A stretch of DNA of 64,000 bases from the human T2T-CHM13v2.0 reference genome, Homo sapiens. The stretch lies in the NCBI RefSeq assembly GCF_009914755.1, contig NC_060932.1; one strand, 5' to 3'. The translations under genes and the position numbers were made by a program. This document shows, one piece after another, positions 10,861-40,329 of the stretch (positions within the stretch are counted from its first letter, which is position 1; every line of letters begins with the position of its first letter). Below the pieces are notes generated by a model. That model was not told the origin of the DNA. It was given only the letters and a program-made list of their open reading frames with translations, and searched no databases.

Positions 10861-13800
10861 CATATTGCATTTTAAGCTTCATTGATTCATCAAGGTCTAG
10901 CTTAGAGCCTTACTTAATTACAGGTTCTGAATTAATTGTCTACTGTTTGTTTACTTCTGAGTACAACTAAAGTCATTTAAGACTACTGGAAAATAAGTTA
11001 CTTTAGCTTTTTCATCTGAAAATTTTTCTACAGTTATAAATTGTATATTTATATAGTACCATTATGATGAGTAATACATTATTACCATAATGGTAATAAT
11101 GTATTACCATAATTTACCACTTTATGACAATAATTTATAACCATAAAATTTTCAGATGAAAAAGCTAAGGTAACTTAAAATATTTTAGGCACCAGAATTC
11201 TTCTCAGGGAAAAATGCCATTGTTTGGAAAAAACATTTTGTTAAGTTACTAAGAGAAGAAGGTAAAATTTACAAAGGCGTAAGTCAAGACAACAACAAAA
11301 AAAATAGTGCCCTGCTTGAACCAAGGAGAAGATGCTCTGTGTTCCCGAGAGGGAGGATACAGAAGAGAGGAAAGGAAAGATTAAGAAAAGAGATTGGAGG
11401 AATTAGCAGATGAAATAAAGCTGAGATCCACATGCAATGAAGCAACCATTAGAAATTCCACCATATAAGACTAGGGATGCCTGATGTGGAATTTGAAAAT
11501 CTTCTTGCTGCTGTGATATGACACTCGCTTTTGTCCCTAACCACCTCAACCCATCCTCAGTAAAGTCTATCACACTTATGAATGCTTTGTGTGAAAGTTT
11601 TGTTTTGTTTTTTAGGAATTCAGGAAAGAACTTGAGTTCTACTTTTGCAGTGAAGAACAGAGAACACCTGCAGAAGCTGAGAATGAAATGAGCCCACCAG
11701 GACTTAGCAACCGTCTTGCTGAGGTTTGGATTTTGACAGGGTGTGAATGGTGGTTGGAGATAAGCTTATCTGGTTTTCCAGGGGCCAGGAGACCACAGCT
11801 AGGTTAGCATCTGCATTGCACATGTTATAGTAAGGATGCCTGTTTGCTATCAAATTACTCTAACAGCATTATTTCCTTTGACTCTATTTAACAGTCATGT
11901 GAAGCAAACCCTTTCTGTAGATCGTGCAAATTTAACTCAATCTGCATTGGGCTGGACATTGTGATAAATTACTAGGGATCTACTTGAATGACACTTTACA
12001 TGCAAACTTTATTTTTACATTTTAATATATTCAAACTTATATGGTTAGGAGAGGAGTGTGACAGCTTCAAAAATAGAAGAAAAATCATTAAATGTTGACT
12101 GGTAGAGCTGGAAGAGATCTCAGCAACTACTTTATAGATGAGGAAACTAAGACATAGAGAAGTGGATAACTTTCCAACATCATACAGCCTTTGAACAGTA
12201 GATTCATTGGAATAATTAAAACAGAAGGTCTTCTTTCCCTGCTAGGGGGATTTCTGCCATGAACCACTCCTCCTGTAGTACTCAAAGGTCTAACTTGGCT
12301 ATGGAAAAGCCTCTATCTCAGGAATGTTTATGTCTTTGGATCCTTTCCTCTCTTTTACAAAAGAACCCTGGAGAAAATAAAAAAAAAAGGTCCACATGGT
12401 TATAAAACACTGAACTTCAGCTTTTTCTGAAGCCACCCTCTTGTCCAAATTTTGGGGACTTTACGTGGATGGGAGCAAGCAGTTTATCTGGGCTTTTTCC
12501 TACTTCCTACCTCTCCCAGGACTGGGAGAGTCAACTGAAAACCAATCAATATATGTTTCATTTTTGTTTTCTGTATAAATAGTTGTCTTATCTGAAATGA
12601 CCTTTTTCCAAGAGCTAATAGCCATAAATTTTTGCAGCTGGACATGTTTAGAAATGCCTCTTAGCTATTTTTGTTGATTTATTTTCTTTGTCTGTATTTG
12701 TGCAATCCAGCTTTGGGCATAGAAGCAAGCAGCTCTGGTTTCTGGTCCTCTACCTCTAATGATTTAAATTCAGGGGACGTAGTTCTTTTTCTATAGGAAT
12801 GGCCCCGTATGGGATTCCATGGAGTCATAGCTCAGCCCAGGAGTTATTATTCTATCTTGGAGACTCATGTTGAATTCTTTTTGTGGCAACTATTTCTGCA
12901 TTTTCTGCATTTCTTTCTGAGTCTGCTTTGAAATGTTTTTATCTATCTATCTATCTGCCTACCTACCTACTTCCAATTTCGATGTCCAATAATATGGTGA
13001 TTATATATTATAGAGTATTAACTCACTGGCATATTAAGTGACCACAATAAATGCAAATGAAAATATCATCTGCTGTGTAGCTCCATGGAACAGCACATCT
13101 GAAACATATTAAGTGACCATTCCGTATATTTAATTATAGTCTGAAAAATTTATGTAACATGTGGATAAAGTTTAGACATTTTCTCAAAAAGAAGTAAGTG
13201 AACTAGAAGTTCTTAATGGCCTAATATGTGCTGGATTTATCTCATTTAACCCTTAGAACAGTCCTGTAAATTAAGCGTCATTACCTCCATCTGAAGATGT
13301 AGAACCTGAGTCTCAATGGATCAAATAACTTGTCTAAAGTCACACAGCTAATATTAATATAAAGGTACAGCCAGAGTTCTAGGTTGGTCCAAAAGCTGGA
13401 ATCTCTGCTCTTTTCATTATGCCGTGCTACGTTTAGAGAAATCTAAGCAATGATAGACTTATGTAAAGGGCTTAGAATTGTAGCATTTTGGGTTAAAAAT
13501 AAAAATAAAAGTAAATATAAAAATATTTTTGTCCCCCTTCATCTTCACTGTATTAATAATTTCTGAGTTGGAGCAAAGGACACATGACTGACACAATAGA
13601 GAGAAATCATCATTCCTCTCTGTCCTTTTGCTTCTAGAACAACGTTGTTACCTCTCTGTCTCTGGATATCCATTTTCCAGGCCACAATATGTATGTTCTG
13701 AGGTCTAAAGTCAAAAGGATGCCAAGAAAATAAGGCAATCGCTTAAGCCCAGAATGTAAGACTAAGCAATAAAACAATCAGAATTATCTGACTTATAAGC

Positions 13801-25549: not shown

Positions 25550-25835
25550 CTGGCTCGGTCTCTGCCAGCGTCTCGGCCTCCTCCGGCGCGGCGCGGGGCC
25601 CGGTGCTCAGCTGGTCGTTCTGCGCCCCGGCGCGGCTGCGTCCTCCCTCTGGCTCTGGCTCTGGCTCCGGCTCCGGGTCGCGCTGTCTCTGGCTGCTCGT
25701 GCGGCCGCCTTGCCGCTGCGCGCCGTCCCGCAGGATGTCCTGGATGAGGAAGGACGTGAGCGGCTTGGACGGGGTCGGCGGCGCGGCCCCCTCCGCTTTC
25801 GCCTCCCCGGGCCGCGGCTCCGGAACCCTGAGCAT
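25550..25835 (-). CDS. NKX3-1: NK3 homeobox 1, coding exon 1 (286 nt, phase-1 intron follows)
   Basis: ATG at 25835; [36 protein letters not shown] with TN/eh1 motif TSFLIQDIL and an EPEPEP run; donor CCAG|GTAAGC at 25550/25549. Residue 52 is Arg. Confidence 0.98.
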
Positions 25836-25883: not shown

Positions 25884-25985
25884 TTTCACTTTCCGCCTCC
25901 CGGCTCGCTTATAGCCCAGGGGAGCGGGCCGCGCCGCCCTCCCATTGGCCGCGGGACGGGCCGCGCCGCGGATTGGCCGCCCTGA
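25884..25985 (-). promoter_or_regulatory. NKX3-1 core promoter (TATA-like plus two CCAAT boxes, GC boxes)
   Basis: TATAA on minus at 25913-25909; CCAAT on minus at 25948-25944 and 25976-25972; GC-rich flanks about 75-140 nt upstream of the ATG. Confidence 0.8.
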
Positions 25986-26124: not shown

Positions 26125-26424
26125 CCTCCGCCCTGAGCCGTTTTCCCAGGCCAGGAGCGCACCCCAAAGCGGGGCTCCTCTGCCCCAACCCACCCGCAAC
26201 AGAGAGAAGCTCCTGGGGATGGGACGATCAAGACAAACAGTCCAGTTAGCTCTTCAGGACCGTCAGAGCCAATTACAGGGGATGAGCACGCAGTCACTGC
26301 AGCCGCGCGGTACCGTGAGAGTTCTGGGTGCTCTCTCTCTCTCTGGGAGAGATGGTGCAAACTCAGATCTGCAATATCTACGACCTCAAAGAGGCATGAC
26401 AAGTAGGTGCAGCCAGACCCCAGG

Positions 26425-27406
26425 CTGAAAGAAGGAAAACACCTTTGCCAAAGCCTTTTCCCGTTGCAGAAGTGGTTTTCTTTGGTGGTTCCTTTATCCG
26501 CAATAACCTGTTAACTTTCCTTCCTCCCCAGACACATGACATACCATCCTTTTGAAAAGTTTCCAGACGGATGGAAGGCGTTTTAGGCCAGGACAAATGC
26601 AAAAACTGCATTTAAAAAAGTAGTTCAAAAGAACATCAGCATACTCTTTTTGCAGATTACCAACTGTTAACATGTAACCCATTGGCTAAACAATGGGTTA
26701 GCCAGATTGGTCCAACCGGTACTGTGACTGGACTGGACGGTACCGTGACAACAGACGAAAGTGGAACAGAGATGATGGAAGTATTTTCTTTCCTTGTCTT
26801 TTCTCTTCTTTTTTTTACGGACAGGGTCTCCCTCTGCCGCCCAGGCTGGAGTGCAGTGATGCCATCATAACTCACTGCAGCCTCGATTTCCTGGATTCAA
26901 GTGATCCTCCTGCCTTGGCCTCTCAAAGTGCCAGGACTACAGGCATGAGTCTCAGTGTCAGGTCGATGATGGAAGTATTGAATTAATGTTAAATTTACTG
27001 AAATTGCACATTGTACTGTCAGTGTACAAGAGAATATTTTTAGGAAATAAACACTGAAGTAAGTAGGAGCAAAGGCACAAGATTTATGAAACTTACATCA
27101 AATGGTTCTGAAACAAGGATGCAGATTGATAGATCCCACGCCATAAAGCCGATGGGTTAAATGGTAACAGTTGGTAATCTGGAAAAAGGGTAGGCTGATG
27201 TTTTTTAGAACCATTTTTTTAATGCAACTTTTTTGTCTGTCCTGGTCTAAGACGGCTTCTATTCAACTGGCAACTTTTCAAAAGGATGGTATGTCATGTG
27301 TCTCTGGAGGAAGGAAAGTTAATAGGTTATTGCTGATAAAGCGACCGCCAAAGAAAACTACCTGTGCAACGGGAAAGACTTTGGCAAAGCTGGTTTTCTT
27401 CTCTCA
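26425..27406. repeat. Spaced inverted repeat: arms ~26425-26687 and ~27147-27406
   Basis: Hand alignment gives ~84% identity over ~260 bp; perfect 32-mer at 26530-26561 vs 27272-27303. Confidence 0.95.
26786..26964 (-). mobile_element. Monomeric left/right hybrid Alu with 15-bp TSD
   Basis: TSD GATGATGGAAGTATT at 26771-26785 and 26965-26979. Confidence 0.85.
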
Positions 27407-27574
27407 TCTTTTCAAAGTCTCTTTATATTAGAACATTCTTTAATGTTTTCTTTTGAATCATTGTAGATTCACAGGAAGTTGCAAAAATAATACCTCCAGT
27501 GTCCTCCAAAGACATCTATACAACTGTAGGACAATGTAGAAAACAGGAAATTTACGTTGGGACATTACAGTTAA

Positions 27575-27889
<315 letters not shown>

Positions 27890-28679
27890 TTATTGTGGTT
27901 TAAATTTTTAATTTGCATTTCACAAATGCCTAGAGATGTTGAATACCTTGTCATGTGCTTGTTTGCCATCCATATTTCCTCTTTGGTGAAATATCTGTTC
28001 AAGCCTTTTGCTCATATTATAATTGAATTTTTCTTTCTTTTATTTTTTAACCATTGAGTTATGATAGTTCTTTATATATTGCTGTTTGTAAGTCTTTGTT
28101 TGGTAGGTTATTTGCAAATATTATCTCCCAGTCTGTAGCTTGTGTTTCCATCCCTCTAACAGGATCTTCAACAGAACAAAAGATTTTAATTTCATTGAAG
28201 ATCAATTTATGAATTTTTGAATTTTACAGAATGTGATTTTGATGTCCTGCCTAAGAACTCTTTGTTTAGTCCTAATACTGAAGATTTGCTCCTATGTTAT
28301 CTTCTAAAAGTTTTATGCTTTACTCTTAAATCCATGATTCCTTCAGAATTAATTTTTGTATATAGTGTGAGGTTTAGATTGAGATGGCCTCCTTTTATTT
28401 CTAAAATTGAGAGTTGGGTATGAATTATTTAATAACAAGTGCTGCCATTTGGAAAAGATAAAGTCCTATTCTTATGACAAAATAAATTCCAGACAGCTCA
28501 AAGATGTAAAACACAAACGAGCACGTGAAAAAAATATTTTAACTACACTTCATCAGTGAAGGAATGCAAATCAAAATCACATTGAGACGAGCCTTTTCCA
28601 CCTTTCAGATTGACAAAGGTTAAAAAAAATGGATAATGTCCAGTGTAAGTGAGAGTGTGGAGGAACAGCTGCTCTCATA

Positions 28680-36499: not shown

Positions 36500-37495
<996 letters not shown>

Positions 37496-40329
37496 AAAAT
37501 TGGCTAAAACTGATTTCTTCAATTAAGTGGCTTATGGTTTTACTGGAGAGCAATTAGGGAAACAGCCAACTGCAATCCAAGGGTGAACTATGTGCTACAA
37601 CAGGGAACAAACCATGAGCTGTGACAGCTCGGAGCACCCAGACCAGAGTCCTTGACTGGGCAACTCAGAGGACTTCCTTAGGGGTGGCATTGAACTAGGC
37701 ATGAAAGACCAAAAGAAGAAGACATGCCTTATGTGTTTTGGAATGCCAGAGGTTTGCTGACTGCAAGCAGAAAACATGCAGAACAATTTGGCAGGGAATG
37801 AGACTGGAAATGTAGGGAAGAGAAAGATTATTGAAACTTGTGTGTCTGGTTGAAGAATGCAGACTACATTTGAAAGTCTTTTCATCAGGAAACATAACTT
37901 TTAAAAAATCCTGTAGAAGAATGAGGAGTGGCTTGGAGAGAAAAAGGAATGGCTTGGCATCCAGGGATGCCAGTTAGGAGAAATTGCGCATGGTCAGGTG
38001 GGAGATAGTAACCTGGGGACCTAGCCTTCTTCTATCTTGTTGCTCTCTTATAATCTAACATAGCTGCTACTGCTCTCACCATTTCATCTGTATTCCAGCC
38101 AGCAGCAGGAAGAGAAGGAAAGTGGAGCCTGTGTCGTGGAGAGTGCCCCCCTCACATCTGCTTACATCCTTTTGGCTAGGACGTAATTATTTGGCTACCC
38201 CTCACTGCAGAAAGAGTCAGGGAAATATAATCCTTAGCTGGGAGACTGTGTGCTTAACTAAAACTCTGGGGTTCAATTACTAAAGAGGAAAGAGGGAAAA
38301 TGGACATTGGATGACAGCCAGGTTGCCTCTCATCATAAGCATCTTTTGGACAGGAATCATAATGCAGATATTCAATTAATTGAATGAATGATTGACCACA
38401 GTCAGAATAAATAGTTCCCTTCCGTGTGCTCCCATGCGATGTTTATAATGCACCTCTTCTAGTTTTCCATGTGGTATAATTAGCTGTAGAGGTGATGTTT
38501 CACCTTCCAGTTTATAATCTTCTTGAGAATAGCACTAAACGTTCTTTGCATCCATGGGTCTCTCTTGCTGTCTATGCTCCCTCTTCTCAGTGCATAGAAG
38601 AGTACTTTGCCCTAAGTAATAGTTCTCTTGTAAATATTTTTTAATGATACTGATCTTATATTCACCCACAGTGCTTTTTTTGTTATACTTGCTAATTAAA
38701 GTTAAGTTGATCTACAGAAGAATGGTTGGAAGAAGGAAACAAAGAACTTCCTTTTTCTCCATAGCCATAAATCCTGGCTGACAGAAATTCTTAGGGTCCT
38801 TGTTATCAGCGGTCAGACAATCCCTGCCAAGAGCTGGGTCCCTATCCGCACAGAGAAGGGATTTCTTCCAGAGGATCTGACTGCTCAGGAGCCAGCTAAG
38901 AGCCTGAATGTTTAATGAAGACTTTGTGAGTTCATACAAAAAGGCCAACTAGCAGCCATTCACTCATTTGATCAATCAACAAATGGTATGGGGCCCCTCC
39001 ACTATGCTGGGCACAGGGCAAGCTGGAAATACATAGGGCAGATTGACTGCTTAAAAAGAACAAACAACTGATTGTTTAAAAAGGACAACAAATATGGAGA
39101 GTCACTGAATTGTCGTGGAGACATCGGGGGTACTCCAGGATCTCATGCCGGAGGCACCTGACCCAACTGGGGCATTAAGACAGGCTCTCTACCAGGAATG
39201 TCCAGGCGAGACACCAGAGGGCTCTGCGATGGCCTGGATACGGGAGCTGTGCAAGGAAAAGATCCCCTTTGGACCACTGAAGTCCTCACTTAGGATTTCA
39301 ATCCTGCGCCCTCAAATTTCAGGCATTTAAACTGGACTGGCGATGGGAGTAAGCAGGAGTCACTGTCGCATTAATGGGAAGGAGGCAGACTTAACTGAGG
39401 CCAGCTTACAAGGACCGTCCCACAGGGAGAGAGTCCAAAGCACTCTGAGGTTTGTGCTCAGGGCTGCTGGGCATATCTTTGCTTTTCTTACAGTGGAATC
39501 TGGACTATGTCACTAAGACCACATCTTTCGTTTGGATTGTGTGGGGGTTGCTAGACAGTCTAAACAGAGGGTCAGGGAGGAAGGCAGATGGACTTCCCAG
39601 GAAGCCCTCTCCCCACTGTGGGGGGAGGTGGAACTGAGGAGGAGAAACAGTCAGGGGAATGCTCCCCACTCTGAAGAGCTGGCCATTTAAAAGCTTGAAT
39701 CAGTGTCCTCAGGGCTTCAAGGCACAGAGGAAAATGTGGACTGAACCAGGCAAGGGGAATGCAGAAGCCAGGGTCTTCGCACGTTGTTTACCCACAGGCA
39801 TCGGAAGATGCAGTTGTATCTCTCCCTTCCCTCCCCACCCTTTCTGGCATCTTGCTTCATAGCTCTCCCCTCTTCATGCTTTCCAAAGGCCTCCTACCTC
39901 TCATGCATTTTTCACTCAGCACAGAAAGAAAGTGTCACTCAATAGTCCCGTGATTTGTATGAAGACAAGAATGCCTTGTGGAGTATTCAGTGGAAGGAAC
40001 CGAGGGGCGAAAGGACAGGGAGCCCAGGGTCTATTCCCAGTTCCATCACTAACTCACAGTGTTGCTGTCACCTTTCTGACCCTTAGACTCTGACTCTGGA
40101 TGGGAGTAGTAATATATTCTGCCTTGTATGGATGGTAAGTACAGAATAAAATCATACCATAGTTCAAAGGATATGCCAATGCAAGGCTGTTATTCGTTAT
40201 ATAAAATATAAATCTATCAGAGGATGGATGCTTGCCAGCAAGTCACAAAAGTGCACGACAGCCCAGGACATATTCCAGCTATGGAATCCAGCTGTACCTG
40301 TGAGACAGGGTACCACTAACAGAAATCTG

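What the first reader, a model, noticed from the sequence alone, without database searches (positions are those of the whole stretch)
26425..27406. ~1-kb spaced palindrome (260-bp arms) immediately upstream of the NKX3-1 promoter
Seen: 26425-26687 is the reverse complement of 27147-27406 at about 84% identity, with a perfect 32-mer AACTTTTCAAAAGGATGGTATGTCATGTGTCT and almost no indels. The ORF track shows it as two homologous opposite-strand peptides sharing TFQKDGMSCV.GGRKVNRLL. The inner part of the right arm continues an old L1M-like 3' end in the spacer while the outer part looks unique, so this is a local inverted duplication, not two TE insertions. It begins about 540 bp from the TSS. 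Inference: a divergent (+ strand) promoter transcript crossing it would fold into a ~260-bp imperfect dsRNA stem (ADAR/Dicer/PKR substrate). It also mirrors GATA (GATAAA) and GGAA motifs and could permit spacer inversion or arm-to-arm gene conversion.
Basis: partly seen in the sequence, partly recalled or inferred. Interest (0 to 1): 0.8.

Follow-up and report, generated by a model that had tools for sequence, protein, structure and literature searches.

The report
Old inverted duplication upstream of NKX3-1
A 260-base stretch upstream of the human NKX3-1 gene was copied backwards long ago, and the copy nearer the gene is the DNA already shown by others to dock the leukaemia factors TAL1 and GATA-3.

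Summary
Window 26426-26687 is the reverse complement of 27147-27406: 221 of 260 aligned bases (85%), two one-base gaps, a 459-bp spacer, a perfect 32-mer.

It is a local inverted duplication, not a transposon with terminal repeats. The arm sequence occurs only twice in the 3.1-Gb assembly. An old dispersed repeat, L1-like by recollection, runs from the spacer about 90 bp into the right arm. Both arms share 21 departures from that family's usual bases. A later Alu-like insert with a 15-bp target duplication widened the spacer.

Arm divergence (K2P 0.169) suggests roughly 38-85 Myr.

New link: primers and motifs of Kusy et al. 2010 (PMC2947082) place their TAL1/GATA-3-bound NKX3.1 promoter region (-875/-570) on the left arm. 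All three mapped motifs lie in that arm, and all three are mirrored in the right arm. The paper's main text does not use the words repeat, palindrome or duplication.

The hairpin-RNA, gene-conversion and spacer-inversion ideas have no support here. The 32-mer is compatible with chance (P = 0.12). Most likely this is a neutral relic whose proximal arm carries ordinary transcription-factor sites.

The parts
26426..26687 (-). Left (NKX3-1-proximal) arm, the inverted copy. The outer part (26426 to about 26563) is non-repeat sequence. The inner part (about 26564-26687) is the reverse complement of the tail of the L1-like repeat.
   Evidence: L010 matches 26601-26680 in inverted orientation. It coincides with the -875/-570 TAL1/GATA-3 region of PMC2947082.
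27147..27406 (+). Right (distal) arm, the parental copy. It is contiguous with the L1-like repeat in the spacer.
26688..27146 (.). Spacer of 459 bp; about 265 bp before the Alu-like insertion.
26688..26770 (.). Left part of the spacer. It is single-copy in the assembly and not significantly similar to the arms or to the L1-like part.
   Evidence: One search found only itself. One search gave P = 0.34-0.77 against the arms.
26771..26785 (+). Target-site duplication, copy 1 (GATGATGGAAGTATT).
26786..26964 (-). Alu-like SINE insert. Its A-tail reads as a T-run on the + strand at its left end.
   Evidence: Sub-threshold Rfam SRP and mir-3135 matches at 26816-26963 and 26838-26897. Many matches per locus in unrelated loci. 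NCBI mask 26778-26954 in the hub's table. The family name is recalled.
26965..26979 (+). Target-site duplication, copy 2.
26968..27241 (+). 5'-truncated copy of an old dispersed repeat (L1M-type 3' end by recollection). Its last 95 or so bases lie inside the right arm.
   Evidence: All 22 other genomic loci match 26968-27116 or part of it at 68-74%. Four of the 22 (L016, L017, L019, L021) run on to 27233-27241. Those copies end 30-40 bp later in an A-rich tail. The family extends further upstream in other loci.
26530..26561 (-). Perfect 32-mer, left copy. It holds the E-box (-738) and GATG (-748) of PMC2947082.
27272..27303 (+). Perfect 32-mer, right copy.
26494..26498 (-). GATAA, the -697 GATA-3/TAL1 site that PMC2947082 reports as the major regulatory site.
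27335..27339 (+). Mirror GATAA in the right arm; not tested in print as far as I could see.
26675..26700 (.). Perfect 10-bp mini-hairpin (TAACCCATTG / CAATGGGTTA, 6-nt loop) straddling the inner edge of the left arm.
   Evidence: Its meaning is unknown.

Best explanation
This is a one-off, old, local inverted duplication. A 260-bp segment, made of the last 95 or so bases of a 5'-truncated L1-like repeat plus about 165 bp of what follows it, was copied in reverse orientation. The copy landed about 0.27 kb to the NKX3-1 side, most plausibly through a replication or repair template switch (inferred). An Alu-like element later inserted into the spacer. The arms have since drifted to 85% identity. 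The structure acts, as far as evidence goes, as ordinary double-stranded DNA carrying transcription-factor sites. The proximal (copied) arm is the region that Kusy et al. 2010 showed to be bound by GATA-3 and TAL1 and to give TAL1-dependent reporter activity in Jurkat T-ALL cells. The distal (parental) arm keeps mirror copies of the same three motifs. The palindromic symmetry itself is most likely a by-product without a function of its own.
For: Two copies only. The whole left arm, the outer right arm and the 32-mer (up to 3 mismatches) each find only the two arms in 3.1 Gb. A profile of both arms finds nothing else in the 64-kb window.

The right arm is the parental copy. The dispersed repeat in the spacer (22 other loci) continues into the right arm in 4 of those 22 loci. 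The left arm's inner end is not followed by the matching upstream repeat sequence.

One ancestral insertion. Of 92 columns with a clear family state, both arms share a non-family base at 21, against 10 private to the left arm and 4 private to the right.

Age. K2P is 0.169.

Function of the left arm. All 5 Kusy primers map exactly to 26281-26776, which anchors the paper's -N at window 25799+N. GATA -697, E-box -738 and GATG -748 then fall at 26494-98, 26533-38 and 26545-48, all in the left arm, and each has a mirror copy in the right arm. NKX3-1 is confirmed as a direct TAL1 target in later work (passages read).
Against: No orthologous sequences could be examined, so the date and the direction of the copy rest on internal evidence only. 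The mechanism (template switch) is inferred, and no clear junction microhomology was found. The genome search is not exhaustive: its own text says common words are skipped, and it missed the 63-66% L1-like matches when the arm alone was the query. The outer arm could therefore still be a very old, diverged repeat. The L1 name is recalled, not tested: 0 of 120 open stretches scanned (of 136 found upstream of the 22 copies) hit an L1 protein domain. The Kusy reporter contained only the left arm, so nothing is known about the right arm's activity. Their evidence is from leukaemia cell lines, not prostate.
Confidence: 0.8

Rival explanations
1. Hairpin-RNA source. A + strand transcript crossing both arms folds into a 260-bp imperfect duplex that is edited by ADAR, cut by Dicer or sensed by PKR/MDA5, and this feeds back on NKX3-1.
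For: The + strand RNA of 26400-27430 folds with the two arms paired end to end, at -484.6 kcal/mol. 15 of the 39 mismatches become G-U pairs in + strand RNA, against 8 in - strand RNA. The hub's annotation places the region inside an intron of a predicted + strand lncRNA (LOC107986930).
Against: The fold is a consequence of the repeat, not independent evidence. The 15 versus 8 G-U difference is small. No Rfam family matches the arms: the only hits with E below 0.1 between 26426 and 27406 are Alu-derived and lie in the spacer. The lncRNA model is predicted, and the 2 papers that name it are polygenic-risk studies of prostate cancer (listing only). In size and identity the pair resembles an ordinary inverted Alu pair, of which human transcripts hold very many (recalled), so even if transcribed it would not be special. 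There are no expression or editing data here.
Confidence: 0.08
2. Two-arm docking platform. Both mirror-image GATA/E-box modules are bound, and the TAL1-LMO-LDB1 complex bridges them, so the duplication itself made human NKX3-1 TAL1-responsive.
For: All three motifs mapped by Kusy et al. are kept in both arms, two of them inside the perfect 32-mer. The paper reports LMO and Ldb1 on the promoter and says the sites are not conserved in mouse. LDB1 self-association bridging such sites is recalled knowledge.
Against: The left arm alone sufficed in the reporter assay. Motif retention is not more than chance predicts: no window of 40-80 bp is significantly poorer in mismatches (P = 0.09-0.58; 0.64 for any window size). 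There are no binding data for the right arm.
Confidence: 0.1
3. A non-autonomous DNA transposon with 260-bp terminal inverted repeats, or two independent insertions (or a twin-priming inversion) of one L1 subfamily.
For: Long inverted termini. The inner third of each arm is homologous to a dispersed repeat.
Against: No other copy exists in the genome. No direct repeat flanks the arms, by reading 26410-26425 against 27407-27422. The arms share the same repeat-to-flank junction and 21 derived bases. Twin priming inverts a different, more 5' part of the L1 and never the flank (recalled mechanism).
Confidence: 0.03
4. Concerted evolution: the arms are kept alike by gene conversion, or the spacer flips by recombination between them.
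For: A perfect 32-mer inside arms that are 85% identical overall.
Against: A run of 32 or more arises in 12% of shuffles of the same mismatches. Outer and inner parts are 88% and 81% identical, with no sharp tract. Polarised changes of 10 versus 4 are not significantly uneven (P = 0.18). 15% divergence and a 459-bp spacer are both unfavourable for recombination (recalled from yeast work on inverted Alu pairs).
Confidence: 0.04

Closest known systems
Small germline inverted duplications made by template switching during replication or repair (as in the four-point template-switch model; recalled, no paper read here)
   Same: Two copies only, close together and in opposite orientation. The copy boundaries ignore older repeat boundaries. 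There is no target-site duplication.
   Different: At 260 bp it is long for the short template-switch events usually described, and no junction microhomology could be shown after this much divergence.
Inverted Alu pairs (the main ADAR substrates in human RNA; recalled)
   Same: Arm length of about 260-300 bp, identity of about 85%, and a spacer under 1 kb. It would form a comparable duplex if transcribed.
   Different: The arms are not SINEs but a unique duplication. Transcription and editing are not shown.
The TAL1/GATA-3-responsive region of the human NKX3.1 promoter (-977/-482; Kusy et al. 2010, PMC2947082; passages read)
   Same: The same DNA. The left arm is 26426-26687, and the paper's ChIP region -875/-570 corresponds to 26369-26674 by its primers.
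   Different: The paper treats it as plain promoter sequence that is not conserved in mouse. Its origin as the inverted copy of a segment 0.8 kb further upstream, and the existence of a second motif set, are not mentioned in its main text. Its supplement could not be read.

Membership tests
DNA transposon / MITE with terminal inverted repeats | Several dispersed copies in the genome | tested here: not met
   Only the two arms are found with the left arm, the outer right arm and the 32-mer as queries. The search's sensitivity falls off below about 70% identity.
DNA transposon / MITE with terminal inverted repeats | Target-site duplication flanking the outer ends | tested here: not met
   Reading: the flank before 26426 (...CCCCAGGC) and the flank after 27406 (TCTTTTCA...) share no direct repeat.
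L1 insertion with twin-priming inversion | The inverted part is a different, more 5' segment of the same L1, and the whole lies within L1 sequence | tested here: not met
   The inverted arm repeats the same 3' segment and also about 165 bp beyond the last detectable repeat homology.
Local inverted duplication | Exactly two adjacent copies that share one older repeat/flank junction and shared derived bases | tested here: met
   (two copies). (junction). (21 shared derived bases in 92 columns).
Local inverted duplication | Microhomology at the switch points | tested here: inconclusive
   The alignment does not extend past 26687/27147 or 26426/27406. The only feature found is a 10-bp mini-hairpin at the inner edge, of unclear meaning.
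L1 (LINE-1) 3' end, L1M type | Homology to a dispersed family with an A-rich 3' end and L1 ORF2 upstream | tested here: inconclusive
   22 other loci are homologous and A-rich ends are seen. However, 0 of 120 open stretches scanned (of 136 found upstream of those copies) hit an L1 domain in Pfam. The name rests on recollection, and no Dfam was available.
ADAR/Dicer hairpin substrate | Both arms present in one RNA, with editing or small RNAs observed | not testable with these tools
   Only the fold could be computed. There are no expression or editing data.
TAL1-GATA composite regulatory element | GATA and E-box motifs bound by GATA-3/TAL1 in cells and needed for reporter activity | not testable with these tools
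   Binding and reporter data come from PMC2947082. Here I tested only that its primers and motifs map to the left arm (5 of 5 primers exact, 3 of 3 motifs at the predicted places).

The most novel reading that the evidence does not exclude
The inverted duplication is what made human NKX3-1 a TAL1 target. It placed a second, mirror-image GATA/E-box module within 0.7 kb of the start codon. The two modules, 0.8 kb apart, are co-occupied and bridged by the TAL1-LMO-LDB1-GATA-3 complex. This would explain why the gene is switched on in human TAL1-positive T-ALL but not in mouse models.
Probability: 0.1. Interest if true: 0.6.

Novelty: new member of a known kind. Interest (0 to 1): 0.38.

Why it matters
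NKX3-1 is a prostate tumour suppressor and a direct TAL1 target needed for growth of TAL1-positive T-ALL cells (PMC2947082, passages read). The regulatory sites that recruit TAL1 were reported as not conserved in mouse.

This analysis shows that those sites sit in the derived copy of a lineage-restricted inverted duplication, and that an untested twin set lies 0.8 kb further out. That gives a concrete, testable account of where a disease-relevant human regulatory element came from.

It also flags a practical point for anyone designing primers, guides or reporter constructs here: the sequence exists twice, at 85% identity. Otherwise the structure is an ordinary neutral relic.

Tried and rejected
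1. TE with TIRs: rejected.

2. Profile search of the whole genome with a two-arm model: the tool does not take models for this genome. I used the model on the window only, where it found nothing new.

3. Proving the spacer repeat is L1 through protein domains. I then scanned 120 of the 136 stop-free stretches. 0 had an L1 domain, and the 2 weak hits that did appear were unrelated families below their cut-offs. The L1 name therefore stays a recollection.

4. Looking for a third, degenerate copy of the arm in the left spacer: not significant.

5. Clustering of mismatches, as a sign of constraint or a conversion tract: not significant.

6. Relative-rate asymmetry between the arms: 10 versus 4, P = 0.18.

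7. Locating the ETS site of PMC2866657. I did not try to open it, so I cannot say whether that site lies in an arm.

8. Nagel et al. 2012 (PMC3407137). Their NKX3-1 ChIP and reporter primers map to 12507-12658 and 37350-37673, not to the palindrome.

9. Print search for the palindrome itself.
- 'nkx3-1' with 'inverted repeat' gave 8 papers, of which 7 were listed. By title and abstract, five deal with steroid- or nuclear-receptor binding or response elements, one with NKX3.1 in castration-resistant prostate cancer and one is a circular-RNA review. None concerns this repeat.
- 'nkx3' with 'inverted duplication' gave 4 unrelated papers.
- 'nkx3' with 'tal1' and 'primate-specific' gave 1 review.
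- The searches for 'nkx3.1 promoter' and for flanking-region terms found no deletion analysis of this stretch.
- Older NKX3.1 promoter papers that I recall from a Shandong group are not in the library and were not seen.

Full report
**Observation**

The inverted repeat is real and lies at the stated place. The repeat finder reports three collinear inverted pieces. A gapped local alignment joins them into 26426-26687 against the reverse complement of 27147-27406. That alignment has 221 matches, 39 mismatches (23 transitions, 16 transversions) and two one-base gaps, which is 85% identity.

The spacer is 459 bp, and the left arm starts 542 bp from the annotated NKX3-1 TSS at 25884. The perfect 32-mer is at 26530-26561 (-) and 27272-27303 (+).

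**Not a transposon**

The window's own 3.1-Gb assembly was searched with four queries:
- The whole left arm found 2 candidates, itself and the right arm.
- The outer right arm, 27255-27406, found 2.
- The 32-mer with up to 3 mismatches found 2 places; the reversed control found 0.
- The left part of the spacer, 26688-26786, found only itself.

A sequence-only profile built from both arms found nothing else in the 64-kb window apart from one E = 7.7 scrap. The same profile could not be run on the whole genome.

The tool warns that it is not exhaustive. It also missed the 63-66% repeat homology when the arm alone was the query. 'Unique' therefore means no copy closer than roughly 70%.

**What the arms are made of**

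A query covering 26975-27406 found 22 further loci. Re-aligned with a sensitive BLAST, all 22 match 26968-27116 or part of it at 68-74%. Four of the 22 (L016, L017, L019, L021) carry the homology on to 27233-27241, which is about 90 bp into the right arm.

In those four loci the family ends 30-40 bases later in an A-rich tail; in two of them an Alu follows directly. A fifth locus, L010, matches the left arm at 26601-26680 in the opposite orientation. Elsewhere the family extends 60 to about 500 bp further upstream than in the window, so the window's copy is 5'-truncated near 26968.

0 of 120 open stretches scanned (of 136 found upstream of the 22 copies) hit an L1 protein domain, and no Dfam is available here.

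The rest of the right arm (about 27242-27406) and its mirror (26426 to about 26590) show no repeat homology.

**One ancestral copy, duplicated later**

Both arms were aligned with five family copies. 92 columns have a clear family state:
- both arms keep the family state at 55;
- both arms share a different base at 21;
- only the left arm differs at 10;
- only the right arm differs at 4;
- all three differ at 2.

The 21 shared departures show that the arms descend from one insertion that had already diverged before it was copied. The 10 versus 4 split is not significant (P = 0.18).

The right arm is continuous with the upstream part of the repeat, while the left arm's inner end is followed by unrelated single-copy sequence. 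The right arm is therefore parental and the left arm is the inverted copy.

The spacer holds a later Alu-like insert on the - strand, 26786-26964. It is flanked by a perfect 15-bp direct repeat (26771-26785 and 26965-26979). It gives sub-threshold SRP and mir-3135 matches in Rfam and many matches per locus in unrelated loci. Before that insertion the spacer was about 265 bp.

**Age**

The K2P distance between the arms is 0.169. At 1.0-2.2e-9 substitutions per site per year (recalled rates) this gives about 38-85 Myr.

**No sign of selection on pairing or of conversion**

A perfect run of 32 or more occurs in 12% of shuffles of the same mismatches. The mismatch-poorest windows of 40-80 columns have P = 0.09-0.58, and 0.64 for any window size. 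The outer and inner parts are 88% and 81% identical.

**Link to published function**

Kusy et al. 2010 (PMC2947082; passages read) report the following:
- TAL1 and GATA-3 occupy -875/-570 of the human NKX3.1 promoter in Jurkat cells.
- A -977/-482 fragment gives TAL1-dependent reporter activity.
- The GATA site at -697 is the major site, and an E-box at -738 and a GATG at -748 also bind.
- These sites are not conserved in mouse.

All five of their primers match the window exactly. The reporter fragment is 26281-26776 and the ChIP amplicon is 26353-26582. This anchors the paper's -N at window 25799+N, which is 36 bp off the RefSeq ATG at 25835.

On that scale the three motifs fall at 26494-26498, 26533-26538 and 26545-26548. 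All lie in the left arm, and the last two lie inside the perfect 32-mer. Each has a mirror copy in the right arm, at 27335, 27295 and 27285.

The paper's main text contains none of the words repeat, palindrom- or duplicat-. Its supplement, with the human-mouse alignment, could not be read. Later papers confirm NKX3-1 as a direct TAL1 target without giving positions (passages read).

**The hairpin-RNA idea**

The + strand RNA of 26400-27430 folds with the arms paired along their length, at -484.6 kcal/mol. That outcome is built into the repeat. 15 of the 39 mismatches would be G-U pairs in + strand RNA, against 8 in - strand RNA.

The hub's annotation puts the region inside an intron of a predicted + strand lncRNA. 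The only 2 papers that name that lncRNA are polygenic-risk studies of prostate cancer (listing only). No Rfam family matches the arms.

I could not test transcription, editing or small RNAs. In size and identity the pair is like a common inverted Alu pair, so even if it is transcribed it would be one of very many such duplexes (recalled).

**Verdict**

This is a confirmed, non-TE, local inverted duplication of moderate age and most likely a neutral relic. The useful result is that its proximal arm is the known TAL1/GATA-3 docking region of human NKX3-1. That region is therefore a derived copy, with an untested twin 0.8 kb further upstream.

Its RNA and recombination inferences remain speculation.

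Noticed in passing
window 12507-12658: The NKX3-1 'ChIP' primers in Table 1 of Nagel et al. 2012 (PMC3407137) map here. [quoted passage not shown] The amplicon lies downstream of the gene, about 13.8 kb from the Kusy GATA site at 26494, so that negative ChIP may not have examined the reported site.
   Followed up: partly
window 37350-37673: The MSX2-responsive NKX3-1 'upstream fragment' of Nagel et al. 2012 maps here, about 11.5 kb upstream of the TSS and well outside the palindrome.
   Followed up: no
window 25799-25835: Kusy et al. state that +1 is the ATG. Their primer positions, however, put +1 near window 25799-25800, which is 36 bp inside the coding sequence relative to the RefSeq ATG at 25833-25835.
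   Followed up: partly
window 27309-27329: The Kusy qPCR reverse primer (exact match at 26504-26524) also has a one-mismatch site in the right arm, facing inward. That single primer could therefore amplify across the palindrome (about 826 bp). Assays and guide RNAs designed in either arm need checking against the other arm.
   Followed up: partly
window 26675-26700: A perfect 10-bp hairpin (TAACCCATTG, 6-nt loop, CAATGGGTTA) sits exactly on the inner edge of the left arm. The second half repeats the first bases of the parental arm in direct orientation. It may be a scar of the copying event, but the rest of the left spacer shows no significant similarity to the arms.
   Followed up: partly
window 27586-27926: A second Alu-like element lies on the - strand just beyond the right arm (Rfam SRP, mir-3135, mir-1285 and mir-1268 sub-threshold hits). 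It has the same orientation as the Alu-like insert in the spacer, so the two do not form an inverted Alu pair.
   Followed up: no
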